Shown here: piece by piece, positions 1-23,405 of the stretch
How the letters are laid out: each line of letters starts with the position of its first letter
Position numbering within the stretch: position 1 is the first letter of the stretch
Made by a program: the position numbers and the translations under genes
IMG/VR virus record: IMGVR_UViG_3300025668_000786
Span: 6,751-70,750 of that record
Length of the DNA: 64,000 bases
DNA from: a virus
Reading direction: 5' to 3' (one strand)
The notes under the pieces: model-generated
What the model was told of the DNA's origin: nothing
Database searches by the model: none
The model's input: the letters and a program-made list of their open reading frames with translations, nothing else

Positions 1-879
1 ATCAATCAATTCACGGACTTCAACAACTTCACCTACAGGCCAAAGGTTAACTACAAGAATCAGATTTATTCATTTCCAATAAATTTGATGACCCTATATC
101 AAGTGTGCGGCGCGTCTACACCCAGCGAAGCAAAAGTCTATCTAGATAGTGTAAAAATTCATAATGAATCCCCCAAGAACCTAGAAGAGTGGATACTATC
201 ACAGGTCGGCAAAGAATTGTATGAAAAGTTTATTTATGGGTATACATACAAGCAATGGAATACAGATCCTAAAAATTTACCAGCATCAATCATAAAAAGA
301 CTACCGATTAGGCTAACTTATGACGATAACTATTTCAACGACAAGTACCAAGGCATCCCAACCGAGGGGTACTCTCAGATATTTAAAAATATGCTAGAAG
401 GAATTCCTGTAGAATTAGAAAAAAACTACTTGACAAACCGTGACTCATATGATAAAATGGCTAAAAGAGTGGTTTACACAGGGGCGATAGACGAGTTTTT
501 TGAATACGAATACGGAGAATTAGAATGGAGAAGTCTTAGGTTTGAACGTGTTGAACGAAAAAACCTAGACCTTCAGGGGGTAGCAGCGGTAAATTATACA
601 GATGTAGACACACCCCACACGAGAATAATCGAACACAAACATTTTAACAACGTAGGGCAAAAAGATACTGTTTTTACTAAAGAATACCCCCAGACATGGA
701 CGAGGGGTAAAGAAAGATTCTATCCAGTAAACAACAAAAAGAATCAAGATAGATTTTATAAGTACAAAAGCCTAATAGAAGATAAGTATATATTTGGCGG
801 TAGGTTAGCGGAATATAAATACTATGACATGCACCAAGTTATTGCATCTGCAATAAATACAGCAAAGAAAGAGTTGTAA
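1..879 (+). CDS. glf: UDP-galactopyranose mutase (5' partial; frame open from window start)
   Basis: Motifs YTYKQW, IIKRLP, YFNDKYQGIP, YTGAIDEFF, TRIIEHKHF, GRLAEYKYYDMHQVI; frame 1 is open from base 1 (INQFTDFNNFTYRPK...). Confidence 0.93.
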   Translation: MNQFTDFNNFTYRPKVNYKNQIYSFPINLMTLYQVCGASTPSEAKVYLDSVKIHNESPKNLEEWILSQVGKELYEKFIYGYTYKQWNTDPKNLPASIIKRLPIRLTYDDNYFNDKYQGIPTEGYSQIFKNMLEGIPVELEKNYLTNRDSYDKMAKRVVYTGAIDEFFEYEYGELEWRSLRFERVERKNLDLQGVAAVNYTDVDTPHTRIIEHKHFNNVGQKDTVFTKEYPQTWTRGKERFYPVNNKKNQDRFYKYKSLIEDKYIFGGRLAEYKYYDMHQVIASAINTAKKEL

Positions 880-880
880 A

Positions 881-2113
881 ATGAACAGACGAAATTTTAT
901 AGGACATTCAACGGGGCTTGCCGCTCTGTCTATGGCTTCGCTTACTTTTGGTCAGCAGATTATTAAGAATCATTCTAAACTTCATAAAGACCAAAAGGCT
1001 GCGATTCTCATATGGCTGGGCGGCGGCCCTCCTACTATTGATATGTGGGATTTGAAACCGGGAACTAATGAGGGCGGCCCCTTTAAACCCATCAGTACTA
1101 CTGGTGATTTTCAAATCTCAGAACATCTACCGCTCCTTGCTCAAAGAGGGGATGACTTCTCTCTCATTAGGAGTATGAGCACTCGTGAGGCAGATCATGG
1201 TCGTGGATCATATATGATGCACACTGGATTCTCTCCTAATCCCAATATGGTACACCCTTCTGTGGGAGCCGTAGTAGCTAATGAGATTGGCCCAACAAAT
1301 GATAACCTTGAGATACCACCTTTCTTTTCTATCGACTCACGCAGTTTTGGAGGCGGCTTTCTGGGTACTGCTTGGAACCCCTTCTCCGTGAGAAGCAATG
1401 GTACTATACAAGATTTAGGAGGGCAAAATCTAAATGTCAATAGACTAAAAATGCTTTCTATGATTGAAGACAATTTCATAAGAAGCAAGAGAGGGGACAT
1501 GCCCAATGATCACAAGAAGTTACTTGAGAGAACCATTAAGTTGAGCACAAGCCCGCAGATGGACGCTCTAAAGATTCAACAGGAACCCGCACAGGTTCTT
1601 GAGGCGTATGGAAATACGGGATTGGGCCGTGGAGCACTTATGGCTCGGCGTTTAATTCAGCAGGGCGTGCCTTTTGTAGAAGTTGGCTTCGGAGGTTGGG
1701 ATTTGCACAATATGACCCACGAAACCCTCCAGACAAAACTACCACAGTTAGATAGAGTTCTAAATTCTCTGATTTTTGACCTAAAAAGATTGGACATTTG
1801 GGAAAATACTGCTATAATAGTTATGGGGGAATTTGGTCGCACACCTCGCATCAACCAGAATGCTGGTCGTGACCATTGGGCTGCTACGTGGTCCTCGTTT
1901 GTTTCCGGGGGTCTGTTCAAAGGAGGACAGGCTATTGGAAAAACCTCACCTGATGGAAAAATGATTGATGGAAAGTCTTATGTGGCTGCTGATTTGGTAG
2001 CAACAACCCTTACGGCAATGGGAATTGACATAAATAGGAACCATACTGCCAAGAACGGAAGACCGATAAAAATTGCTAATGGCGGTAGCGTAATAAAAGA
2101 ATTGATTTCATAA
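881..2113 (+). CDS. DUF1501 family protein with Tat signal (sulfatase/alkaline-phosphatase-like fold)
   Basis: N-terminal MNRRNFI twin-arginine; ILIWLGGGP..IDMWDLKP, LMARRLIQQGVPFVEV, GWDLH, MGEFGRTPRIN..GRDHW are typical of the family. Confidence 0.9.
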   Translation: MNRRNFIGHSTGLAALSMASLTFGQQIIKNHSKLHKDQKAAILIWLGGGPPTIDMWDLKPGTNEGGPFKPISTTGDFQISEHLPLLAQRGDDFSLIRSMSTREADHGRGSYMMHTGFSPNPNMVHPSVGAVVANEIGPTNDNLEIPPFFSIDSRSFGGGFLGTAWNPFSVRSNGTIQDLGGQNLNVNRLKMLSMIEDNFIRSKRGDMPNDHKKLLERTIKLSTSPQMDALKIQQEPAQVLEAYGNTGLGRGALMARRLIQQGVPFVEVGFGGWDLHNMTHETLQTKLPQLDRVLNSLIFDLKRLDIWENTAIIVMGEFGRTPRINQNAGRDHWAATWSSFVSGGLFKGGQAIGKTSPDGKMIDGKSYVAADLVATTLTAMGIDINRNHTAKNGRPIKIANGGSVIKELIS

Positions 2114-2173
2114 CCTCGCGGTTCACCGCATCACTACGTCAGTTCGTAGTTCACGTTGCCACCGCGTTGTTAT
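2110..2173. repeat. Symmetric double-loop hairpin element, copy 1
   Basis: CGCGGT-TCACCGCATC-ACTACG-tcagtt-CGTAGT-TCACGTTGCC-ACCGCG, with outer extension ATAAC/GTTAT; same architecture at 6064 and 23344. Confidence 0.75.
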
Positions 2174-2193
2174 GTTTTTTATTGAGAAAGAAT

Positions 2194-3798
2194 ATGAAAT
2201 ACCCACTTTGTAATTACACACACTATTCGTTGCTGAAGGGCTTCTCTAAGCCTAAACAGCTATCCAAGAAATGCGTTGAGAACGAATACGTTGCCTGCGG
2301 CATCTCTGACTACAAGTCAATATCGGGGGCGGTGTCATTCCATAAGTCCTGTCAAGACAATGGTATTAAACCCATCATCGGGTGTTCGTTTGATCACTAT
2401 ACCCTGTTTGCAATAAATAAGCAGGGCTGGTTTGACTTGATTGAGATTGTGTCCTCGTTAAGCGCAGAGGGTAATGAGTATTTTCACATTACGAAAGAAA
2501 TCTGCAAGCGTAATAATTTGATCTGTGTGACTAACAGCCAGTCTCCGTGTGATGCATCTCTAACGTTCAAGCCCACTCCTCTCACGTCGCCTTCTCATTA
2601 CGTTGAACAAGCAGACGCTCATCTTCACAGAATCCTACTGTGTTCAGCTATGAAGACAACCCTGCCAAAAGTCAATACGCTTTTGAGGTCTGGCAACCTG
2701 GAACAAAATGAAGAATTCTTTTTAAAGGACACTTTCTATGTAAAGTCAAAAGACGAAATGCCCGACGATGAGTATGGTGAGCGATCCCTAGAGCGGATAT
2801 ACAACCTATGTGAAGACTATGAAATACTCAGTCCTCCAATGCTTCCGAAGTTCCCGACCCCAACGGGAGAGTCCGAAGAAGAATATCTAAAAAGTCTAGC
2901 TAGAAAAGGTTGGATAAAATTTCTACACAATACGGGAAAGGTAGAAAAGGAAGAAGACAAGCAAAAATATCTTGACAGATTTACTATGGAGTTTGATGTT
3001 ATTAAGCAGGCAAACCTTTTTGGTTACTTTCTAATCGTTCAAGACATCATACGTTATGTAAAGAGCCAAGGGTGGCTTTCGGGGCCGGGTAGGGGTTCTG
3101 CTGCTGGGTGTTTAATATCCTACATTGTTGAAATCACAGAGATAGACCCCATAGAATTCGACCTACTATTTGAAAGGTTTTTTAATGCCGCAAGAACTGA
3201 TGCCTTACCGGACATTGATATGGATGTCCCAGCTAACAAGCGTGATGATATCATTGAATATCTTAAAAATACTTACGGAAAAGATAACGTGAGTCAGATG
3301 CTTACATTTGGTAGACTACAGGGAAGGAGCGCCGTAAAGGAGGTTTTGAGGGTTAGCGACGTGTGCGGCTTTGGTGAGATGAATGAGATCACAAGCCACA
3401 TAGCAGACGAAGCAGCGATCTCTGACCAGCTACAGGAGATGGATGAAGAAGATAGGTCTATTATCAGATGGTCACTAGTTAATAATGCTGACGATCTGCG
3501 AGACTTTTGCTTTATCAACGAAGACGGGAAGCTAGACGGTGACTATGCAGAGTTCTTTGACCAGGCTATACAGATTGAGGGGACGTTTAAAACACAGGGC
3601 AAACACCCAGCAGGGGTTGTTATCTCGGCAGAACCCCTTTACAAAGTTTGCCCAATGGTAAATCAAAAAAGCGGAGGAGAAAAAATTGCAGGACTAGAAA
3701 TGGCTGATTTGGAAGCACTCGGACATGTTAAGTTTGATGTGCTTGGACTTACATTACTTGACAAGATTATGAAAATAGAGGAGCTAATAAATGGCTAG
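2194..3798 (+). CDS. dnaE: DNA polymerase III alpha, N-terminal half (degenerate PHP + palm/thumb)
   Basis: THYSLLKG, GPGRGSAAG, LLFERFFN, PDIDMD, GKHPAGVVIS, KFDVLGL; stops shortly after KFDVLGL. ATG 2194 preferred over TTG 2167. Confidence 0.92.
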   Translation: MKYPLCNYTHYSLLKGFSKPKQLSKKCVENEYVACGISDYKSISGAVSFHKSCQDNGIKPIIGCSFDHYTLFAINKQGWFDLIEIVSSLSAEGNEYFHITKEICKRNNLICVTNSQSPCDASLTFKPTPLTSPSHYVEQADAHLHRILLCSAMKTTLPKVNTLLRSGNLEQNEEFFLKDTFYVKSKDEMPDDEYGERSLERIYNLCEDYEILSPPMLPKFPTPTGESEEEYLKSLARKGWIKFLHNTGKVEKEEDKQKYLDRFTMEFDVIKQANLFGYFLIVQDIIRYVKSQGWLSGPGRGSAAGCLISYIVEITEIDPIEFDLLFERFFNAARTDALPDIDMDVPANKRDDIIEYLKNTYGKDNVSQMLTFGRLQGRSAVKEVLRVSDVCGFGEMNEITSHIADEAAISDQLQEMDEEDRSIIRWSLVNNADDLRDFCFINEDGKLDGDYAEFFDQAIQIEGTFKTQGKHPAGVVISAEPLYKVCPMVNQKSGGEKIAGLEMADLEALGHVKFDVLGLTLLDKIMKIEELING

Positions 3799-4471
3799 TA
3801 GAGATATAATTGTATTCGATTTTGAAACAGGCGGTAGAGACCCCAATACGTGTCAGCCGACACAGTTGGCGGCCATAGCCCTAGATGGTAGAAACTTTAA
3901 ACTGAAGGGGTCTTTCAATAGCGAGATCCGTGCAGAAGTAGATGACGAAAAAGCCGTCAAGAAAGGTTTAGGCCCAATCGAAGAAGGGGCGCTTAAAGTC
4001 ACCGGAAAGACACGGGCAGAAATTGCCAAAGCTCCGCACCTTAAAACCGTGTGGAAAAAGTTTACTCAGTTTGTAGACAAGTATAACTGGAAGGGTACAC
4101 CTTTCTTTGCCCCTATCCCAGCAGGATTTAATATCATTGGGTACGACATGGTTATCATTAATAGACTATGTAAAGAGTTTGGACCATACGATGATAAAAG
4201 AGAGCGCCAAAAACTGTTTAGTGCAGTATACAAGATTGATGTTATGGACAATGTTTTTATGTGGACAGAGGGCGACCCTAGTGTCAAATCTATCAGTATG
4301 GACGCGATGAGAGAAAGGATGGGAATGTCTAGTGAAAACTCTCACGACGCCCTACAGGACGTTAAAGACACTGCGAACATAATGATTAAGTTCATGAAGA
4401 CCCACCGTGCTGTATACAGAAATCTAAAAGTTGAAAACGCATTTGCTGACGCTGGAGACCTGTATGTCTAA
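3791..4471 (+). CDS. DEDDh 3'-5' exonuclease (DnaQ/epsilon-like)
   Basis: ExoI VFDFETGG, ExoII GFNIIGYD, ExoIII HDALQDV; 8-nt overlaps with both dnaE halves. Confidence 0.88.
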   Translation: MASRDIIVFDFETGGRDPNTCQPTQLAAIALDGRNFKLKGSFNSEIRAEVDDEKAVKKGLGPIEEGALKVTGKTRAEIAKAPHLKTVWKKFTQFVDKYNWKGTPFFAPIPAGFNIIGYDMVIINRLCKEFGPYDDKRERQKLFSAVYKIDVMDNVFMWTEGDPSVKSISMDAMRERMGMSSENSHDALQDVKDTANIMIKFMKTHRAVYRNLKVENAFADAGDLYV

Positions 4472-6014
4472 GGTCGATATAACAGACCAGAAAACTTGGG
4501 ATCTATTCAAGAACGGATACACAAAGGGTGTATTCCAACTTGAAAGTAATCATGGAAGAAATTGGTCTAGAAAATTAGCCCCATCAAACCTTGAAGAGTT
4601 GTCGGCATTGATAGCGATTATCAGGCCGGGAACCCAAAAGGATCAGCGTCAGCAATTCGTTGATAGAAAACATGGGCGTGAAGAGGTTACTTATACAGAT
4701 AAGTCGCTAGAGGACATCCTCAAAAAGACATATGGCATTTTAGTTTATCAAGAGCAGTCTATGCGTATAGCCCAAAGTCTAGCAGGGTTCGATCTTAAAG
4801 AAGCCGACGAGCTACGTAAAGCCATTGGTAAGAAAAAAGCCGACCTTATGGCTAAGGTCAAGACTAAGTTTGTCAAGGGCTGTATAAAACAAAGGGTCGT
4901 AACAAAGGATGCCGCAGAGGAAATCTTTAGTTTGATTGAAAAGTCTGCTAGGTATGCGTTCAATAAGTCTCACAGTGTGGCTTATGCCGTAAATGCCTAT
5001 AATACAGCTTGGTACAAAGCAAACCATACGACAGAGTTTTTCTTGTCTTACCTGTACTATGCCGCTGACAAGCAAGATCCTCACCAGGAAGTCTACGAAT
5101 TGGTTTCAGAGGCTAAACTATTTTCTATCGAAACAAAAATACCAAACCTGACACAGTTTAGTGAAAAGTTTGTTGCAGTAGGTAGAGATATATACTTTGG
5201 CGTTAAGGATGTCAAATCCCTGACGGGTGTTACTGGAGATAAAGTTATCTCATCGATAGCAGAGGTTGAGGAAGAGACCAAGATAAAGTCTAAAAATCTA
5301 ACATGGCTAGACGTTTTAATCTACCTGTCTCCTAAAATTAATGCTACGGCTTTTAAGGCTCTAGCGTCTATCGGGTTCTTTAGCATAAAGTCCACAAAGG
5401 TCTCACGTAACAAAGCCCTATACGAGTATGAAATATTCAAAATGCTCACCAAGAAGGAAAAGGAGTGGGTCTTAAATAACTACTCAGATAAAAAGTGGAC
5501 AACCCTAGAAGAGTGCATGATAGATCTATGTCCAACAAAGAAAAACGGCGGTGGGACACACAACGTAGCTCGCAGCCAACTGATTGAGAATGAATTAGAA
5601 ATGATTCGCAATCCACCGTTTAGCTTGGACGACGACCCGTCTTGGATCGTAGCTCAAGAGGTTAAGTTTCTGGGGTGTCCAATTTCCCTTGCTAAAATTG
5701 ATGCTGCCGACACATCGGAAGCTACTACGACTTGTAAAGAAATTGTAGACGGCAAGCATGGTAAGAACCTATGCGTAGCTGGAAACATAGTAAGAGAAGT
5801 GTCCTTCAAAACTAAGAATGGAAAGAGTGCGGGACAGCTAATGTCGTTCCTGACAATCGAAGATGACACTTGCACCCTTGACGGCGTTGTTGTTTTTCCA
5901 GAGGCTCGGAAGCTACACGAGTACATGTTATACGAAGGGAACAACCTGCTTTTCTGCGGAGAGGTCAAAAAAGGGGACAATTCCTTTATTATTGAGAAAA
6001 TTCACGAAATTTAA
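4464..6014 (+). CDS. dnaE: DNA polymerase III alpha, C-terminal half (fingers, HhH, OB fold)
   Basis: D.KTWDLF..G.TKGVFQLES, LIAIIRPG, TYGILVYQEQ.M, ADELRKAIGKK, YAFNKSHSVAYA, C-terminal OB (M.FLTIED...VVVFP). ATG at 4464. Confidence 0.92.
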   Translation: MSKVDITDQKTWDLFKNGYTKGVFQLESNHGRNWSRKLAPSNLEELSALIAIIRPGTQKDQRQQFVDRKHGREEVTYTDKSLEDILKKTYGILVYQEQSMRIAQSLAGFDLKEADELRKAIGKKKADLMAKVKTKFVKGCIKQRVVTKDAAEEIFSLIEKSARYAFNKSHSVAYAVNAYNTAWYKANHTTEFFLSYLYYAADKQDPHQEVYELVSEAKLFSIETKIPNLTQFSEKFVAVGRDIYFGVKDVKSLTGVTGDKVISSIAEVEEETKIKSKNLTWLDVLIYLSPKINATAFKALASIGFFSIKSTKVSRNKALYEYEIFKMLTKKEKEWVLNNYSDKKWTTLEECMIDLCPTKKNGGGTHNVARSQLIENELEMIRNPPFSLDDDPSWIVAQEVKFLGCPISLAKIDAADTSEATTTCKEIVDGKHGKNLCVAGNIVREVSFKTKNGKSAGQLMSFLTIEDDTCTLDGVVVFPEARKLHEYMLYEGNNLLFCGEVKKGDNSFIIEKIHEI

Positions 6015-6043
6015 TTGGTTTTTTTGCGTTTGTAGACTATAAT
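6015..6043 (+). promoter_or_regulatory. Sigma70-like promoter upstream of ssb/glycosylation operon
   Basis: TTGGTT (6015-6020), 17-nt spacer, perfect TATAAT (6038-6043). Confidence 0.5.
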
Positions 6044-6063
6044 AGGGTGTTGTTAAATATTAC

Positions 6064-6126
6064 AGCGGACCTAGATTCAGCCGATCATTTAGATCAATCT
6101 AAATTCAGTATCTTATCTAGGCCGCT
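6064..6126. repeat. Symmetric double-loop hairpin element, copy 2
   Basis: AGCGG-A-CCTAGAT-TCAGCCGATC-ATTTAGA-tcaa-TCTAAAT-TCAGTATCTT-ATCTAGG-CCGCT. Confidence 0.75.
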
Positions 6127-6156
6127 TTTCAAATTGCACCCTGTTGAGGACTAAGA

Positions 6157-6474
6157 ATGAACGTTTGTACTTTTACTGGATTTGTAGTTGACGCACCAGA
6201 GCTTTCGGTAGAGGATGGGGCCAGTGTAGTCGAACTGACCATCGTGTCGTATACATACCGCCGATCTAAAGCTACAGGCGAAAAAACCAGAATACCAACC
6301 TATATCAATCTAGAGGCTTGGTCTTCGGGAGCAGAGACTATAGAAAAGCTAGTAGACAAGGGTACAAAGATAACGGTGTACTGCTCTGCTAGAAACGTAT
6401 CTCAGGAGGACTGTTCCATAGTCTTCAGGATTAATGAATTTGACATTTGCCAGCCTGACTGTCAGCAAGAATAG
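6157..6474 (+). CDS. ssb: Single-stranded DNA-binding protein (short OB fold, no acidic DIPF-type tail)
   Basis: MNVCTFTGFVVDAPEL...YINLEAW..GAE.I.K.V.KG.KITV pattern of bacterial-type SSB. Confidence 0.75.
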   Translation: MNVCTFTGFVVDAPELSVEDGASVVELTIVSYTYRRSKATGEKTRIPTYINLEAWSSGAETIEKLVDKGTKITVYCSARNVSQEDCSIVFRINEFDICQPDCQQE

Positions 6475-6492
6475 CAGTTGTAAAGGATTAAT

Positions 6493-8178
6493 ATGAGAAA
6501 AAAGCGTATACTTTTTTGTAGCGAAGCTACCTTTTTAAACACGGGCTATGCCACCTACACTAGAGAAATCCTTAACTACTTGCATTCTACCGGCAAGTAT
6601 GAAATTGCAGAAATGGCATCCTACGGTCAACGTAACGACCCACGGGCAGCAAACATACCGTGGAAGTACTATGGGGTTATGCCCAATAGAGAATGTGAGC
6701 CAAAATCCTCGGAAGAAGAGTGTAGACAGTATGACTCAAAAGGTACTAACCAATTTGGTGAGTGGATTTTTGAACATGTCTGTTTAGATTTTTTACCGGA
6801 TATTGTATGTGATATACGTGACTTTTGGATGTTAGATTTTGCAGAAAGGTCGCCCTTCCGACCCTGCTTTAAATGGGCTATCATGCCTACTGTAGACGCA
6901 AGACCACAGGCTAGACAGTGGGTCGCTACATACGCCTCTGCTGATGCCTGTTTTACATATTCAGATTGGGCGGGTGGAGTCCTGGCGGATCAATCGGGAG
7001 GAAAGATTAATTATTTGGGAAGTGCCCCTCCGTCAGCCCACCCCGCCTATCATCCTGTTGAAGATAAGAAGGCTCATAAGCAAAAGCATGGGATTGATCC
7101 CAAATACAAGATCATTGGCACAGTAATGCGAAACCAACGTCGCAAGCTGTATCCAGATCTTTTTGCAGCCTTTAAGAAGTTCTTGGATCAGGCTGAGAGT
7201 AAAGACTATTATCTATACTGTCATACTAGCTACCCAGATCTAGGTTGGAATATTCCTGAGCTATTGCAAGAAAATGAACTATCGTCTCATGTATTGTTTA
7301 CATACATATGCAACGAAACTCAAAAACCATTCCCCTCGCTGTTTAAGGGGGCAGTAGCGCAATCTCCATTTACTGGCCAGTGGTGTGCTACACTGTCTAA
7401 TGTCAAGAATGGAGCTTCTTACGAAGACCTTTCTGATATTGTCAATCTCTTTGACCTCTATACTCAGTATGCCAACTGTGAGGGTTTTGGCCTGCCGTAT
7501 GTAGAAGCTGCGGCTTGTGGTATACCAGTGTGCGGCACTGACTACTCCGCTATGGAGAGCGAGATTAGAAAGCTGGATGGATACCCCCTTAAGCCAGCAG
7601 GCTTGTATAAGGAGCTAGAGACAGGTTGTTTACGCGCAGTCCCAGATAACGATAGGGCGGCAGAGTTTTTCTTGAATTTCTTTGAGAAAGACAAAAATGA
7701 CGAAGACAGATTAAAAATTGGCGAAAGAACACGAGAAAACTTCGAGAAACATTTCCAGTGGCACCTCAGTGGTAAAAAATGGGAAGATTACTTTGACAGC
7801 GTAGAACTGTTGCCTATTGAGAGAACCTGGGGCGCTCCACCAAGAGTACACCAGCCAGAAGAATTACCAAAAGAAATCCCAAAGAATGCAGCCAATGGAG
7901 ACATAGCAAGGTGGTTGATAGCTAAAGTTTTATGTGAACCAGAAAGAATGGGTACATTTTTTGAAATGAGGCTCACCAAAGACCTAACCTACAAAACAAC
8001 GACATCAATGACCGGAGGTATGTATTTCAACGAGTCGTCAGCGTCCTTTGACAATCCAAACCCCTTGCAACCATTTAGCTTGCAAGACGCTTATAATAAT
8101 TTAAGGAGCTTATGTGAGAGAAGAAACCATTGGGAGAATATAAGGATACAAAAGATAAATCAAATGAGAGGTGCATAG
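6493..8178 (+). CDS. Glycosyltransferase, GT-B/GT4-like
   Basis: IIGTVMRNQRRK, EGFGLPYVEAAACGIPV..TDYSAM. Confidence 0.85.
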   Translation: MRKKRILFCSEATFLNTGYATYTREILNYLHSTGKYEIAEMASYGQRNDPRAANIPWKYYGVMPNRECEPKSSEEECRQYDSKGTNQFGEWIFEHVCLDFLPDIVCDIRDFWMLDFAERSPFRPCFKWAIMPTVDARPQARQWVATYASADACFTYSDWAGGVLADQSGGKINYLGSAPPSAHPAYHPVEDKKAHKQKHGIDPKYKIIGTVMRNQRRKLYPDLFAAFKKFLDQAESKDYYLYCHTSYPDLGWNIPELLQENELSSHVLFTYICNETQKPFPSLFKGAVAQSPFTGQWCATLSNVKNGASYEDLSDIVNLFDLYTQYANCEGFGLPYVEAAACGIPVCGTDYSAMESEIRKLDGYPLKPAGLYKELETGCLRAVPDNDRAAEFFLNFFEKDKNDEDRLKIGERTRENFEKHFQWHLSGKKWEDYFDSVELLPIERTWGAPPRVHQPEELPKEIPKNAANGDIARWLIAKVLCEPERMGTFFEMRLTKDLTYKTTTSMTGGMYFNESSASFDNPNPLQPFSLQDAYNNLRSLCERRNHWENIRIQKINQMRGA

Positions 8179-9978: not shown

Positions 9979-10963
9979 CCAAACGTCATCAATTATAAGC
10001 AAAAGCACTTGTAAGAAAAAGACCTATAACATTCTTACATTCGACACCCACGAAAGATATCAAACCCAGCTAGCAAAGACCGGACATAACTTTTATGCCT
10101 TTAGATCTGATGGGTGTAAAGAATGGAATCAAGACTACGGTAAGCAACCAGAAAATTACTATACCCTCCCTAAAAATTCTATCTATCACGGTCTAGATTT
10201 TGATTTTATTTTGTCTCAAAGTAAATTTGGGCAGATACAAGCGTCCCGCCAAATAAATCAAATGCTGAAACTTCCAATTGTTTCTTTAGAGCATACGCTC
10301 CCAATACCAAGCTGGCCCGACGAACAATTTTCACAGCTAAGACAAATGACTGGAGACATAAATGTATTCATTTCTAAATACTCTGTGGGGCAATGGGGGC
10401 TTACAGGAGGGGTACATGAAGTAGTTCATCATTCTGTTGATACAGAACTTTTTAAACCAGGAGACGTAGAAAGACAAAAAACCGTACTAAGCGTAGTAAA
10501 CGACTTTAAGAATAGAGACTACTGTTGTAACTACGAAGGGTGGTGTCGTATCACAGAACCTCTGAAGGACAAGGTTAAGCTGGTAGGAGACAACCCAGGA
10601 ATTTCTGAAGCTATGGGTCCAGAGGGTCTCGTTAAGGAATACCAAAAAGCACTAATCTTTTTAAACACCTCTACGATTAGTCCGGTGCCGACCTCTTTGT
10701 TAGAAGCTATGGCTTGTGGGTGTGCAGTTGTAACTACTGCGACCTGCATGATCCCAGAGATAATTGCAGACGGAGTGAATGGATACATTTCTAATGACGA
10801 AGCCGTGCTAAAATCTCAGATACAAAACCTATTAAACAATCCCAGTATTGCTAAAGAGCTTGGTGAAAATGCACGACAAACAATATTAGAAAAGTTCAAT
10901 GAAGATTCATTTGTAAATAACTGGAACAACATCTTTAACAAAGCATATGGATTAAAAAAATGA
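9971..10963 (+). CDS. Glycosyltransferase, GT4-like
   Basis: HSVDTELFKP, PTSLLEAMACGCAVV, EIIADGVNG, LGENARQTI. Confidence 0.85.
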   Translation: MSNQTSSIISKSTCKKKTYNILTFDTHERYQTQLAKTGHNFYAFRSDGCKEWNQDYGKQPENYYTLPKNSIYHGLDFDFILSQSKFGQIQASRQINQMLKLPIVSLEHTLPIPSWPDEQFSQLRQMTGDINVFISKYSVGQWGLTGGVHEVVHHSVDTELFKPGDVERQKTVLSVVNDFKNRDYCCNYEGWCRITEPLKDKVKLVGDNPGISEAMGPEGLVKEYQKALIFLNTSTISPVPTSLLEAMACGCAVVTTATCMIPEIIADGVNGYISNDEAVLKSQIQNLLNNPSIAKELGENARQTILEKFNEDSFVNNWNNIFNKAYGLKK

Positions 10964-21051: not shown

Positions 21052-21479
21052 ATATTGGATTTTACATAGACAGCCTAAAGGGCGAACCAGAGACAATCGC
21101 CCTCTATAAGGGGCTAAATAAACTAGCAGATAGCGGCGAAGCGGATGACATAAGTCTGTTTTACAATCAGGTAGAATTTAACCCAGAACAGCCAAAGTTT
21201 GGACTGTTCAACGCTGCCGAAGCCTGGTGCTTTACAGGTACATTAATTGCCAACAGCCTTAGAAACGCAAAGATGGCAGCGAATATGATAAACAAGTTCA
21301 AGCTATTCTATCTTTACAACAAAGGAGATAAGAATGTCTTTGATTTGATATCCTTGCCACACCACGTCCCGGTTCTGGCAAACACAAAAGAAGAAGCCGA
21401 ATATATTTATCGAGTATCAGGCAAACCAGTCCACTCAGTCGTTAATAATATAGAAGAAATCATAGAGGCCGTCAAATGA
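21048..21479 (+). CDS. Hypothetical protein
   Basis: ATGA-coupled ORF with GGAG SD; MNIGFYIDSL resembles a GT-B N-terminal strand. Confidence 0.6.
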   Translation: MNIGFYIDSLKGEPETIALYKGLNKLADSGEADDISLFYNQVEFNPEQPKFGLFNAAEAWCFTGTLIANSLRNAKMAANMINKFKLFYLYNKGDKNVFDLISLPHHVPVLANTKEEAEYIYRVSGKPVHSVVNNIEEIIEAVK

Positions 21480-22249
21480 ACGATTTAGAACAAACAGTAA
21501 TATCTATGTACGACGATCAGGATCTCAGTACGTATCAGATAGCAAAAGAACTAAAAACCTATCCCAACAAGATACGGCGAATCCTTATAAAGCACGGCAA
21601 GGAACTAAAGTCTAAGAGTGAGGCCCAGAAGGTTGCCCTCAAGACCGGCAGATCTAAACATCCCACAGAGGGTAGAGAGCGATCCCACGTAGAAAAGCTC
21701 AACATCAGCAAGTCCATGTCAAGCTACTGGGACGAGATGGACGAATCTGACAGAGAAGCAAGGGTTGAAGACTCTAAGGAACGCTGGGCAAAGATGGACC
21801 CAAACAAGAGAAAAGAAATGCAGGCTTTAGCCATCGAGGGTATTCGTCGCGCATCTACAGAAGGGTCAAAAATCGAAAACTTTGTAGTCAAAACCGTATC
21901 AGGAGGCGGCTACAGGGTACAGTTCCATAAAAAGGATCTAATTCCGAACCAAAATCTCGAAATAGATCTGTATATTCCCTCTCTAAAGACTATAATAGAG
22001 GTAGACGGTCCCTCTCACTTCCTGCCCGTTTGGGGGGAAGACCGCTTGAAAAAACAGATGAAGGCTGACCTAGACAAGAATGGTCTAATCCTAGCTAAAG
22101 GGTTTGTCATGATTAGGATAAAAGCCCTAAAAACACGACTTTCCCTTGTAGACGAGGAGGATTTAAAGGATCTTGTATTGAAACATTTGAATCGTATTGA
22201 AAGTAAATTTCCAAAAGAATCAGAAAGGTACATTGAGGTAGAATTATGA
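21476..22249 (+). CDS. HTH plus Vsr/DUF559-like endonuclease (putative free-standing homing endonuclease)
   Basis: N-terminal HTH (LSTYQIAKEL...IRRIL), central basic repeats, C-terminal EIDLYIP...IIEVDGPSHF...D..KN. Confidence 0.7.
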   Translation: MNDLEQTVISMYDDQDLSTYQIAKELKTYPNKIRRILIKHGKELKSKSEAQKVALKTGRSKHPTEGRERSHVEKLNISKSMSSYWDEMDESDREARVEDSKERWAKMDPNKRKEMQALAIEGIRRASTEGSKIENFVVKTVSGGGYRVQFHKKDLIPNQNLEIDLYIPSLKTIIEVDGPSHFLPVWGEDRLKKQMKADLDKNGLILAKGFVMIRIKALKTRLSLVDEEDLKDLVLKHLNRIESKFPKESERYIEVEL

Positions 22250-23013: not shown

Positions 23014-23345
23014 AAATCACATATACGACTAAAAATGGCAGAATTTCCGCAGAAATAGAGGGAGAATCGCAAAGAGACCTGTTCGAGAACGTGAACAAGT
23101 TCCAAGACGTTTTCGAAGAACTCAACTGCGGCAAGTGTGGCTCTGACGATGTTAGATTTGTCGTCAGAAACGTGGATGACAACCTTTACTACGAATTAAG
23201 ATGTAAGGGTTGTGGTGGTCGCCTTAACTTTGGAGCGAATAAGTCAGGAGGTGGTTTATTTCCCAAGCGAAAGGATGGAGAGGGTAACTGGCTACCCGAT
23301 AACGGTTGGGTAAAATGGAACCCTAAGACAGAGAAGAATGAATAG
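23001..23345 (+). CDS. Hypothetical zinc-ribbon protein
   Basis: CGKC...CKGC; last gene before terminator. Confidence 0.7.
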   Translation: MAVLKITYTTKNGRISAEIEGESQRDLFENVNKFQDVFEELNCGKCGSDDVRFVVRNVDDNLYYELRCKGCGGRLNFGANKSGGGLFPKRKDGEGNWLPDNGWVKWNPKTEKNE

Positions 23346-23405
23346 GTATTGAGATTCAAATTGTCATCTAAGCTAGACTTAGATTCACGTCATCATCTCA
23401 GACCT
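23344..23405. repeat. Symmetric double-loop hairpin element, copy 3
   Basis: AGGT-AT-TGAGAT-TCAAATTGTC-ATCTAAG-ctaga-CTTAGAT-TCACGTCATC-ATCTCA-G-ACCT. Confidence 0.75.

What the first reader, a model, noticed from the sequence alone, without database searches (positions are those of the whole stretch)
2110..2173. Novel two-fold symmetric hairpin motif repeated three times with covarying stems (copy 1; others at 6064-6126 and 23344-23405)
Seen: three intergenic elements share one architecture: outer stem, 10-nt arm, inner hairpin, 10-nt arm, outer stem. Stems differ in sequence (copy 1 is unrelated to copies 2 and 3) yet pair perfectly: outer CGCGGT/ACCGCG, CCTAGAT/ATCTAGG, TGAGAT/ATCTCA; inner ACTACG/CGTAGT, ATTTAGA/TCTAAAT, ATCTAAG/CTTAGAT. 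All six arms read T-[TCA NNN NN YY]-A. Arm positions 7-8 are complementary between the two arms in every copy (CA/TG, GA/TC, TG/CA), giving a covarying 2-bp core between two symmetric 6x2 internal loops. Read on the - strand, each loop resembles a kink-turn (bulge ending in U, then tandem G.A/A.G), so the element looks like a head-to-head double k-turn. All copies have the same orientation and lie beside or near DNA-metabolism genes (dnaE, ssb, end of the annealing-protein operon). Inference: an undescribed structured RNA or ssDNA site bound by a homodimeric protein, such as a regulator, processing nuclease or replication/priming factor. I do not recognise it as a known family.
Basis: partly seen in the sequence, partly recalled or inferred. 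Interest (0 to 1): 0.88.

Follow-up and report, generated by a model that had tools for sequence, protein, structure and literature searches.

The report
Symmetric double-bulge phage RNA hairpin
The three hairpins are real members of an undescribed family of about 100 two-fold symmetric structured RNA modules that uncultured marine phages carry on their own transcripts, beside promoters, tRNAs, terminators and even inside a tmRNA gene; what binds or cuts them is not known.

Summary
The window has exactly three copies (2117-2166, 6070-6121, 23350-23400), all on the + strand, which is the sense strand. Each has an outer stem P1, a 10-nt arm, an inner hairpin P3, a second 10-nt arm, and P1 again.

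Covariance models and pattern scans found 41 further distinct copies in related IMG/VR phage contigs and 62 in marine metagenome contigs. Neither Rfam nor 26 pattern hits in cellular genomes gave a match.

- **Covariation:** P1 and P3 are 99-100% paired.
- **Arm consensus:** U|UCA-NNN-[NN]-U-Y|A. The NNN triplets are unconstrained and change far faster than their flanks.
- **Folding strand:** G.U pairs occur only on the TCA strand, so the minus-strand double k-turn reading fails.
- **Context:** copies lie just after sigma70-like promoters, 3-7 nt from tRNAs, before or inside terminators, in tandem arrays, and inside one tmRNA gene.

Best reading (about 0.4): a cis-acting RNA module recognised by a dimeric dsRNA-binding protein, with host RNase III the leading candidate, serving transcript processing or stability. 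No partner was shown. An ssDNA recombination site, a protein-free stabiliser and a ribozyme remain open. The scan had noted this only on this window.

The parts
2110..2173 (+). Copy 1: P0 ATAAC 2110-2114 / GTTAT 2169-2173; P1 2117-2122 / 2161-2166; arm 1 2123-2132; P3 hairpin 2133-2150 (loop 2139-2144); arm 2 2151-2160. It lies between the DUF1501 stop and dnaE.
   Evidence: orthologues in L002, L003, L004 and L030 with compensatory stem changes
2175..2180 (+). T6 run directly after the copy 1 P0 helix, a terminator- or attenuator-like context. The probable dnaE start ATG is at 2195.
   Evidence: the same arrangement occurs in L002 and L004
6015..6043 (+). Sigma70-like promoter, TTGGTT-N17-TATAAT, about 20 nt upstream of copy 2.
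   Evidence: conserved in the orthologous loci L002, L045 and L048
6064..6129 (+). Copy 2: P0 AGCGG 6064-6068 / CCGCT 6122-6126; P1 6070-6076 / 6115-6121; arm 1 6077-6086; P3 6087-6104 (loop 6094-6097); arm 2 6105-6114; T-run 6126-6129. It sits in the ssb 5' leader (ssb ATG at 6157).
   Evidence: P0 covaries in orthologues (AGCGG/CCGCT, AGCGA/TCGCT, GCAGC/GCTGC)
23344..23405 (+). Copy 3: P0 AGGT 23344-23347 / ACCT 23402-23405; P1 23350-23355 / 23395-23400; arm 1 23356-23365; P3 23366-23384 (loop 23373-23377); arm 2 23385-23394. It follows the last + strand ORF.
   Evidence: the same position before a terminator is seen in L080
23406..23431 (.). GC-rich hairpin with a T-run (GGGGGGCAGAAATGCCCCC TTTTTT) at the convergent junction, immediately after copy 3.
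   Evidence: the ORF map shows + strand genes up to 23345 and - strand genes from 23429

Best explanation
The three sites belong to a family of 50-60-nt cis-acting RNA modules transcribed as part of the sense transcripts of a clade of uncultured marine phages (estimated genome size about 160-170 kb).

Shown:
- The fold is P1, then U-C-A plus three unconstrained nucleotides, a 2-bp Watson-Crick core and U-Y, then the P3 hairpin, then the same arm again, then P1. This gives two identical asymmetric 6x2 loops related by a pseudo-dyad through the core.
- If the invariant A3 pairs with U9 of the other arm, the loops become two 3-nt bulges on opposite strands, 2 bp apart.
- The helix ends next to the loops are also alike: (R)AU|UCA and UY|AUC.

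Inferred:
- Such symmetry is what a homodimeric RNA-binding protein reads.
- The leading candidate is the host's RNase III. It is a dimer that takes substrates of about two helical turns, and its two cuts lie 2 bp apart.
- It could cut across the core, or bind without cutting.
- The module would then punctuate early or middle polycistronic transcripts and tRNA or tmRNA precursors, and leave or form protective hairpins at new 5' and 3' ends.
- Copies with an extended lower stem and a U-run would also act as terminators or attenuators.
For: Fold and covariation:
- In A8 (41 distinct copies), P1 is 100% paired and P3 99.2%. 12 of those 13 pairs show changes on both sides. No shuffle of 500 reached the observed paired share or covariation score.
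- This was replicated on 62 distinct metagenome copies: P1 99.7%, P3 99.0%.
- Core pairs are paired in 32/40 and 38/40 cells, and in 58/62 and 60/62.
- Mutual information between arms is 1.36 and 1.23 bits for these two position pairs. No other pair exceeds 0.27, and the shuffled maximum is 0.18.

Sense-strand RNA:
- The G.T versus A.C test gave 44 versus 26 hits, from a Watson-Crick-only base of 25.
- In 29 of 29 descriptor hits in element-bearing genomes, ORFs on the element's strand are at least as many as those opposite. G010 has copies on both DNA strands, each matching local genes.
- One copy lies inside a full-length tmRNA gene (RF00023, 105.6 bits).
- Copies lie 3-7 nt from tRNA ends in L078, L064, L053, L174 and L179.
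- TATAAT boxes lie roughly 5-25 nt upstream in several independent loci. P0 stems with T-runs follow in others.

Symmetry: both arms share the same consensus.

Literature (passages read):
- E. coli RNase III substrates typically span two helical turns. Internal loops or bulges restrict cutting and leave protective 3' hairpins. A bulge-helix-bulge motif permits binding but inhibits cleavage (PMC1540722, introduction).
- Most T7 transcripts carry at least one RNase III site (PMC3867540, section 8).
Against: - No partner was identified. There is no RNase III, dsRBD, EndA or L7Ae domain in 5 element-bearing contigs, which are 34-75% complete.
- A presence/absence profile of 9 element-bearing contigs against 3 complete element-free relatives gave only a PAP2-like phosphatase (5 of 9 against 0 of 3).
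- No cleavage evidence. The one metatranscriptome contig that crosses copy 1 is uncut. The data are contigs only, and DNA carry-over is possible.
- A copy inside a tmRNA argues against obligatory destructive cleavage.
- The two 6x2 loops interrupt the helix more than in known RNase III sites.
- Model R2 finds nothing in the T7 early region (best 7.5 bits). T7 intergenic hairpins fold as a single 9-13 bp stem and are not two-fold.
- The fast-changing triplets and the mosaic junctions at the element are not predicted by this model.
Confidence: 0.4

Rival explanations
1. A single-stranded DNA site. The + strand folds when it is transiently single-stranded, as lagging-strand template or non-template strand. 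It then serves as a structure-specific recombination, exchange or insertion point, in the manner of integron attC, REP or PeSL elements. The module would spread by copy-and-paste.
For: - Mosaic boundaries coincide with the element. Upstream of copy 1, L004 is unrelated (0.38-0.53 identity per 50-nt bin) while downstream it is 0.90-0.94.
- Five orthologous doublets split into two upstream classes and become identical about three bases before the first element's P1, from ATG-ACGGAT onward.
- An identical framework (P1 and P3) occurs inside a tmRNA and elsewhere in the same contig, L229.
- Tandem arrays reach 4-5 copies.
- tRNA ends are classic insertion targets (recalled).
- N4-N6 triplets differ at 124 of 198 positions between orthologues whose flanks differ by 4.5%.
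- Arm 5-mers are shared between non-orthologous loci slightly above chance: 8 against 4.15 expected, with 13 of 300 shuffles at least as high.
Against: - No tyrosine recombinase and no Y1 transposase in 5 element-bearing contigs, though these are incomplete.
- The AAC/GTT R-box of attC is absent in 2 of the 3 window copies.
- Placement tracks transcription signals (promoters, U-runs, tRNA ends) rather than gene-cassette ends.
- Copies within a genome differ in their arms, unlike recent transposition products.
Confidence: 0.15
2. A protein-independent RNA stabiliser or insulator. A compact fold at transcript 5' ends, 3' ends and tRNA flanks blocks exonucleases or 5'-end-dependent decay. The symmetry would reflect the fold itself.
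For: - Positions right after transcription starts and before or within terminators.
- Tandem reinforcement in arrays.
- Tolerated inside a stable tmRNA.
- No partner protein found.
Against: - Invariant UCA and U-Y in both loops, and sequence-conserved helix ends, suggest specific recognition rather than mere stability.
- A plain GC-rich hairpin would do the same job.
- Copy 3 is not unusually stable (z = -1.35).
Confidence: 0.15
3. A small self-cleaving ribozyme, or a bulge-helix-bulge-like excisable module cut at both bulges.
For: - The contexts resemble those of phage ribozymes: tRNA flanks and tandem arrays. Theta ribozymes lie next to viral tRNAs (PMC10879173 and its preprint, search listing with the start of the abstracts only).
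- About 14 conserved nucleotides.
- The bulges lie 5' of the central helix on each strand, as I recall for the archaeal BHB motif.
Against: - No conserved G, and few conserved positions beyond UCA and UY.
- The central helix is 2 bp, not 4.
- No EndA in 5 contigs.
- An uncut, unspliced RNA-library contig spans copy 1, and no joints were reported.
- No Rfam ribozyme hit.
Confidence: 0.06
4. One reading: a head-to-head pair of kink-turns formed by the - strand and bound by an L7Ae-type protein.
For: On the - strand each long loop strand ends in UGA. The short strand is GA in 4 of the 6 window arms.
Against: - The - strand would carry A.C mismatches where the + strand has G.U.
- All copies are sense to their genes.
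- No L7Ae family match in 5 contigs.
Confidence: 0.02

Closest known systems
Phage T7 RNase III processing signals (R0.3, R0.5, R1, R1.1, R1.3)
   Same: Both are repeated intergenic hairpins on phage transcripts, found after promoters and between genes. Both have conserved unpaired nucleotides and variable stems, and both are read by a dimeric enzyme. Internal loops limit cutting and leave protective hairpins (PMC1540722 and PMC3867540, passages read).
   Different: Not homologous: R2 scores at most 7.5 bits on the T7 early region. T7 sites fold as one 9-13 bp upper stem with asymmetric flanks (site positions recalled, because the record does not annotate them). They have no duplicated UCA arm, no 2-bp core and no two-fold symmetry.
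Bulge-helix-bulge 'uncoupling' motif for E. coli RNase III (Calin-Jageman and Nicholson 2003)
   Same: Two bulges flank a short helix inside an RNase III-sized hairpin. The motif allows binding without cleavage, which would fit a copy inside a tmRNA.
   Different: I know it only from one sentence in PMC1540722. The original paper is not held, so its geometry could not be compared. It was selected in vitro and is not a natural repeated family.
Archaeal bulge-helix-bulge splice motif
   Same: Pseudo-two-fold symmetry, with bulges on opposite strands, each 5' of a short covarying central helix. Bulge sequence is free. It occurs in tRNA and rRNA contexts and is read by a dimeric or tetrameric endonuclease (recalled).
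   Different: The central helix here is 2 bp, not 4. There are extra 2x1 mismatches with invariant UC/Y. Promoters are bacterial in type. No EndA was found. No splice joints were seen.
PeSL promoter/terminator cassettes of T4-like phages
   Same: [quoted passage not shown]
   Different: PeSLs are defined by a conserved promoter-plus-terminator sequence and act through homology. Here the conserved thing is a covarying nested fold with a free triplet. Many copies have no promoter, for example those between tRNAs or inside a tmRNA.
Integron attC sites
   Same: Nested inverted repeats (outer and inner boxes) with unpaired spacer or extrahelical bases. Structure is conserved more than sequence. They are strand-specific and lie in arrays at gene ends (recalled).
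   Different: No AAC/GTT R-box in 2 of the 3 window copies. No integrase in 5 contigs. Both arms are the same length (10 nt) and begin with UCA. The elements are tied to transcription signals.

Membership tests
Kink-turn (Kt-7 or box C/D type) | On the folding strand, a 3-nt bulge followed by tandem sheared G.A/A.G pairs | tested here: not met
   The folding strand is the TCA strand, and it has no conserved G in or next to the loops. The UGA/GA pattern exists only on the non-folding strand.
Kink-turn (Kt-7 or box C/D type) | An L7Ae-family binding protein is available | tested here: inconclusive
   PF01248 matched 0 of 5 element-bearing contigs, but these are 34-75% complete and the host is unknown.
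Archaeal bulge-helix-bulge motif | Central helix of 4 bp between two 3-nt bulges | tested here: not met
   Only 2 covarying pairs. The neighbouring candidate pairs are paired in about 42-55% of cells, close to the roughly 36-42% seen when partners are slid by one column across the whole structure.
Archaeal bulge-helix-bulge motif | A splicing endonuclease (EndA) is present | tested here: inconclusive
   PF01974 matched 0 of 5 contigs. The promoters are bacterial in type. The host genome was not available.
RNase III substrate | A quasi-continuous helix of about two turns, with loops or bulges at the target site | tested here: inconclusive
   P1 of 6-12 bp, 10-nt arms with a 2-bp core, and P3 of 6-7 bp give about 20-25 stacked positions. 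Whether the loops stack could not be tested.
RNase III substrate | Binding or cleavage by RNase III | not testable with these tools
   Needs an enzyme assay or RNA end mapping. The RNA data were contigs only.
T7-type RNase III signals (homology) | Sequence and structure similarity to the T7 R sites | tested here: not met
   R2 with filters off on T7 700-6700 gave a best score of 7.5 bits. The folds differ.
Any Rfam 15 family | A covariance-model match | tested here: not met
   0 matches at gathering score in the window. At E <= 5 in L001, L078 and L083, which hold 9 full copies and one cut off at the locus end, the only hits were 2 tRNAs and 1 chance miRNA hit elsewhere.
Integron attC | Conserved R-box (RYYYAAC / GTTRRRY) and an IntI recombinase | tested here: not met
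   AAC...GTT flanks only copy 1. PF00589 matched 0 of 5 contigs.
REP/RAYT or IS200/IS605 hairpins | A Y1 HUH transposase and near-identical copies | tested here: not met
   PF01797 matched 0 of 5 contigs. Copies within one genome differ in arms and often in P1.
PeSL-like regulatory cassette | A composite promoter and stem-loop at exchange points | tested here: inconclusive
   A promoter lies directly upstream in some loci but not in tRNA, tmRNA or array copies. Mosaic junctions at the element were seen in 2 comparisons.
Intrinsic terminator | A stable stem followed directly by a U-run | tested here: inconclusive
   Copies 1 and 2 and roughly a third of the loci have P0/P1 followed by T4-T7. 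Copy 3 and most array or tRNA copies do not.

The most novel reading that the evidence does not exclude
Marine phages of bacteria carry a bulge-helix-bulge-like system. A dimeric endonuclease cuts both 3-nt bulges of the module, so the module behaves as an excisable or processable insert. It can sit harmlessly next to tRNAs, in 5' leaders and inside a tmRNA. The same cut-and-repair or copy-and-paste activity, on RNA or on the folded DNA strand, would keep randomising the bulge triplets and shuffling gene modules at these sites.
Probability: 0.07. Interest if true: 0.9.

Novelty: new variant of a known kind. Interest (0 to 1): 0.7.

Why it matters
This would add a well-supported structured RNA class. 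It has about 100 distinct copies and covariation in three helices, and it is absent from Rfam. It comes from abundant but uncultured marine phages.

Its strict two-fold design, with a 2-bp core between two free triplets, gives a concrete and testable handle on how these phages process or protect early transcripts, tRNAs and a tmRNA.

Two side observations could connect RNA structure with phage genome mosaicism, if they hold:
- The bulge triplets change several-fold to about 20-fold faster than third codon positions next door.
- Mosaic junctions fall at the element.

Tried and rejected
**Minus-strand k-turn.** Rejected by the strand test.

**Alternative fold as two tandem hairpins with 10-nt loops.** Only 78% of cells are paired against 72% in shuffles. 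Only the 3-4 pairs next to the arms are pairable, which follows from the symmetric helix ends. Solo hairpins of that form are not enriched in 7 genomes: in G000, 2 were observed against 2.4 in shuffles.

**Arm triplets pairing with each other or with other arm positions.** No signal in mutual information.

**Cellular homologues.** 26 pattern hits in 596 Gb of species genomes, none real by R2. The best was a partial match of 24.7 bits.

**Cultured relatives.** megablast found none. DnaE identity to any phage record is below 34%.

**Type-A pattern scan.** It returned only contigs already known.

**Partner by presence/absence.** Only a PAP2-like phosphatase and antisense ORF artefacts came out. 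The family searches for RNase III, dsRBD, EndA, L7Ae, integrase and Y1 transposase were all empty in 5 incomplete contigs. The first MAFFT alignments of the three copies were not structure-consistent and were not used.

**RNA runs.**
- Four metatranscriptome runs are held as contigs only.
- One contig (X19 no. 17, 300 nt) spans copy 1 uncut. 17 of its 19 differences lie inside the element (18 substitutions and one inserted base in all; one substitution, at 2077, lies outside it and one is not listed in the output).
- Other contigs start at 6082 and 6142.
- No ends, strand or level can be read from contigs, and no weight is put on parts without cover.

**Literature.** The searches found no description of this motif. 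Supplementary files were not opened and could hold motif lists that I did not see.

**Ascertainment caveats.**
- The pattern used fixed GATTCA, the P3 sequence and the second TCA. Their conservation in A8 and A10 is therefore partly due to ascertainment. P1, the core, arm 2 length and positions 9-10 were not fixed.
- A8 and A10 were fitted to the model, so pair counts lean towards its structure.
Full report
**1. The observation**

Each has an outer stem P1 of 6-7 bp ending in T, and a 10-nt arm beginning TCA. Next come an inner hairpin P3 (6-7 bp beginning with A, loop of 4-6 nt), a second 10-nt arm beginning TCA, and the other half of P1. All three also have a further outer helix P0 after a 1-2-nt interruption: ATAAC/GTTAT, AGCGG/CCGCT and AGGT/ACCT.

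Evidence that this is more than chance:
- A strict descriptor finds exactly these three loci on the + strand and none on the - strand of the 70,750-nt record.
- Fifty block shuffles gave 0.02 hits per genome.
- Predicted + strand folds reproduce the nested stems. Copies 1 and 2 have z = -6.3 and -5.8. Copy 3 is weak on energy alone, with z = -1.35 and 19 of 200 shuffles as good.
- A covariance model seeded with copy 3 and two elements from other contigs recovered copies 1 and 2 at 28.4 and 25.9 bits. The next window hit scored 14 bits.

**2. What the window is**

The window is 64 kb of a 70.7-kb IMG/VR phage record that CheckV puts at 42% complete. It has no close cultured relative. Near-identical DNA occurs in marine and seawater metagenomes.

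Genes run on the + strand up to 23345 and on the - strand from 23429. The three copies therefore lie on the sense strand:
- Copy 1 lies between a DUF1501 gene and a split dnaE.
- Copy 2 lies in the ssb leader, behind a TTGGTT-N17-TATAAT promoter.
- Copy 3 lies after the last + strand ORF, directly before the hairpin and T-run at the convergent junction.

I could not confirm an annealing protein near copy 3.

**3. The family**

Thirty-seven loci encoding relatives of the DnaE N-terminal part were fetched.
- Elements sit upstream of dnaE in the four closest or selected relatives, with compensatory changes. P1 reads CGCGGT/ACCGCG, CGCAGT/ACTGCG, CGTAGT/ACTACG, TGGGCAT/ATGCCCA and ACGGGAT/GTCCCGT.
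- A second model, R2, found 14 copies in five records and none in the 13-kb dnaE loci of the other relatives searched.
- Three complete relatives of 159-174 kb and one 63%-complete relative have none.
- A sequence pattern of the commoner subtype brought 32 stretches from IMG/VR and more than 118 from metagenome contigs.
- R2 confirmed 43 copies (41 distinct, alignment A8) and 63 copies (62 distinct, alignment A10).
- The same pattern hit 26 places in one genome per prokaryotic species. None was confirmed; the best was a partial match of 24.7 bits.
- Single records hold 1-7 copies.
- Rfam 15 has nothing: no match at gathering score in the window, and none at E <= 5 on three loci holding nine full copies and one cut off at the locus end.

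**3a. Contexts**

Contexts seen:
- About 5-25 nt behind TATAAT boxes with TTGACA-like -35 boxes.
- 3-7 nt after or before tRNA genes. In L078 the element fills the gap between tRNA-Glu and tRNA-Asp. In L179 elements flank both sides of tRNA-Met.
- Directly before terminators.
- As the upper part of terminator-like hairpins, for example AGAGG...CCTCT followed by T7.
- In tandem doublets to arrays of 4-5 copies, with a 61-74-nt period.
- Inside a tmRNA gene in L229, with an orthologue in L183. Rfam recognises that gene over its full length at 105.6 bits. The element lies in the 3' pseudoknot region. Three other phage tmRNAs lack it there.

**4. Structure**

On A8, P1 is paired in 100% of cells and P3 in 99.2%. 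Twelve of those 13 pairs change on both sides, and no shuffle reaches the observed paired share or covariation score. Sliding the partners by one column drops pairing to about 36-42%. A10 replicates this, with 99.7% and 99.0%.

- Arm 1 position 7 with arm 2 position 8, and position 8 with position 7, pair in 32/40 and 38/40 cells (A8), and in 58/62 and 60/62 cells (A10). All four Watson-Crick types occur.
- The next candidate pairs are near chance.
- Mutual information between the arms is 1.36 and 1.23 bits for exactly these two position pairs. Elsewhere it is at most 0.27, and the shuffled maximum is 0.18.

The arm consensus is T|TCA-NNN-[NN]-T-Y|A in both arms. Positions 4-6 look unconstrained: 58 of 64 triplets occur among 196.

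The invariant A3 and the mostly-U position 9 of the other arm could pair. That would make the loops two 3-nt bulges on opposite strands, 2 bp apart. This is inference, because invariant columns cannot covary.

The helix ends next to the loops are also conserved and alike. This is why an alternative fold into two tandem hairpins is partly pairable, but it is much weaker: 78% against 72% in shuffles.

Caveat: part of the TCA and P3 conservation comes from the search pattern, and both alignments were fitted to the model.

**5. Which strand folds**

- With Watson-Crick-only stems the descriptor finds 25 hits in 1.36 Mb. Allowing G.T on the TCA strand gives 44. Allowing A.C instead, which is G.T on the opposite strand, gives 26.
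- Nearly all non-standard cells in P1 and P3 are G.U.
- All 29 clear descriptor hits in nine records are oriented with the local genes. This includes G010, which has copies on both DNA strands.

So the TCA strand folds, and it is the transcribed sense strand. This rules out the minus-strand double k-turn. The sense strand has no conserved G to make G.A pairs.

**6. An unexpected property: fast-changing triplets**

Orthologous copies differ mainly in arm positions 4-6.

| Region compared (16 orthologue groups, 33 pairs) | Positions differing |
|---|---|
| N4-N6 | 124 of 198 |
| Flanks | 4.5% |
| P1 | 0.8% |
| P3 | 2.5% |
| Core | 13.6% |

- Window copy 1 against L002: the element is 66% identical and the surrounding 800 nt are 97.6% identical.
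- A metatranscriptome contig carries a third arm variant in the same conserved background.
- Five orthologous doublets upstream of dnaE are nearly identical over about 200 nt. The differences fall almost entirely in the four arms, mainly in the triplets.

The excess is smaller than that picture suggests. Third codon positions of dnaE differ by 0.11-0.35 among the distinct doublet phages (two of the five are identical), and by 0.046 between the window and L002. The corresponding N4-N6 differences are 0.58-1.0 (my counts). The excess is therefore about 3- to 20-fold, not orders of magnitude. The pairs are not independent.

Arm 5-mers recur at non-orthologous loci slightly more than expected: 8 against 4.15, with 13 of 300 shuffles at least as high. 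Short-patch conversion between copies is therefore one candidate cause. A mutation hot spot in unpaired DNA, or diversifying selection, are others. I leave this unexplained.

Mosaic junctions coincide with the element in two comparisons.

**7. Mechanism**

Shown: a sense-strand, structure-constrained, pseudo-two-fold module placed at transcript starts, ends, tRNA flanks and inside a stable RNA.

Inferred: a homodimeric reader. RNase III is the best candidate for these reasons:
- It is a dimer.
- It takes substrates of about two helical turns.
- Loops at the target site limit cutting and leave protective hairpins.
- A bulge-helix-bulge motif allows binding without cleavage (PMC1540722, introduction read).
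- T7 places such sites on most of its transcripts (PMC3867540, section 8 read).
- The 2-bp core matches the 2-bp stagger of its two cuts (recalled).

Against this reading:
- No partner was found in incomplete contigs.
- There is no end or joint evidence.
- There is no homology to T7 sites.
- A copy inside a tmRNA fits binding or a structural role better than cutting.

I put 0.4 on 'RNA module read by a dimeric dsRNA-binding or -cutting protein'. The rivals are:

| Rival | Weight |
|---|---|
| Folded-ssDNA exchange or insertion site | 0.15 |
| Protein-free stabiliser | 0.15 |
| Ribozyme or excisable BHB-like insert | 0.06 |
| k-turn pair | 0.02 |

**8. Comparison and novelty**

In behaviour and placement the element is closest to phage RNase III signals and to PeSL cassettes. 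In topology it is closest to the bulge-helix-bulge motif. It fails the defining tests for k-turn, canonical BHB, attC, REP/IS200 and every Rfam family (see the membership table).

I rate it a new variant of a known kind, namely a repeated cis-acting structured RNA signal on phage transcripts. The unusual features are strict two-fold design, free fast-changing triplets, and use inside a tmRNA.

The earlier notes of this scan on the same window (copy 2 in the ssb leader, copy 3 before the terminator) agree with what I found. No other window in the scan had this motif.

Noticed in passing
L229:10068-10407 (element at 10258-10307); orthologue L183:8304-8353: A phage-encoded tmRNA (RF00023, 105.6 bits, full length) carries an intact copy of the element in its 3' pseudoknot region. 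The tmRNAs in L053, L064 and L206 do not; L206 has a copy 23 nt downstream instead.
   Followed up: partly
A9 (L054, L066, L071, L059, G006 doublets); window 2126-2131 and 2154-2159 against L002: Arm positions 4-6 differ between orthologous copies at 124 of 198 positions, while flanks differ by 4.5% and stems by 1-2.5%. That is about 3-20 times the third-codon divergence of the adjacent dnaE. The cause is unknown.
   Followed up: partly
L174:4320-4622: A roughly 140-nt unit is repeated in tandem. Each unit has one free element and one element embedded in a GGGG...CCCC-T5 terminator. The spacers are identical between units, but the arms and P3 differ.
   Followed up: no
window 2167-6014: DnaE is split into an N-terminal gene (PHP and polymerase core) and a C-terminal gene (finger domain), with a DEDDh exonuclease gene between them (Pfam).
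   Followed up: partly
G002:19695-20366, G004:72465-73151, G006:105589-106290, G007:74358-75098, G009:48657-49361: A 223-246-aa protein with PSGH and HYPSDN motifs (PAP2-like by recall, not scanned) is the only family found in 5 of 9 element-bearing contigs and in none of 3 complete element-free relatives. In G006 and G009 it lies just upstream of the dnaE doublet.
   Followed up: no
window 6030-6050 and orthologous loci (L002, L003, L045, L048, L051): A recurring promoter-like block, GACTATAATAGRGTG, lies in front of several early genes of this phage group. It is also present in relatives that lack the element.
   Followed up: no
L085:623-674 and L084:8131-8221: Other viral contigs carry tandem direct repeats of a simple TAGAT-TCA-N7-ATCTA hairpin without the nested form. 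They score only 15-18 bits with R2. They may be a related simpler unit or chance.
   Followed up: no
window 21476-22249: An ORF matches the HNH/homing endonuclease PHROGs (phrog_559, E = 1.1e-14) near the end of the + strand gene block.
   Followed up: no
L083:10900-11010, L067, L186: The gene directly downstream of a triple-element array begins MLYDYGCTNCGE...CPSCG, a small CxxC...CxxC zinc-ribbon protein. It was not scanned.
   Followed up: no
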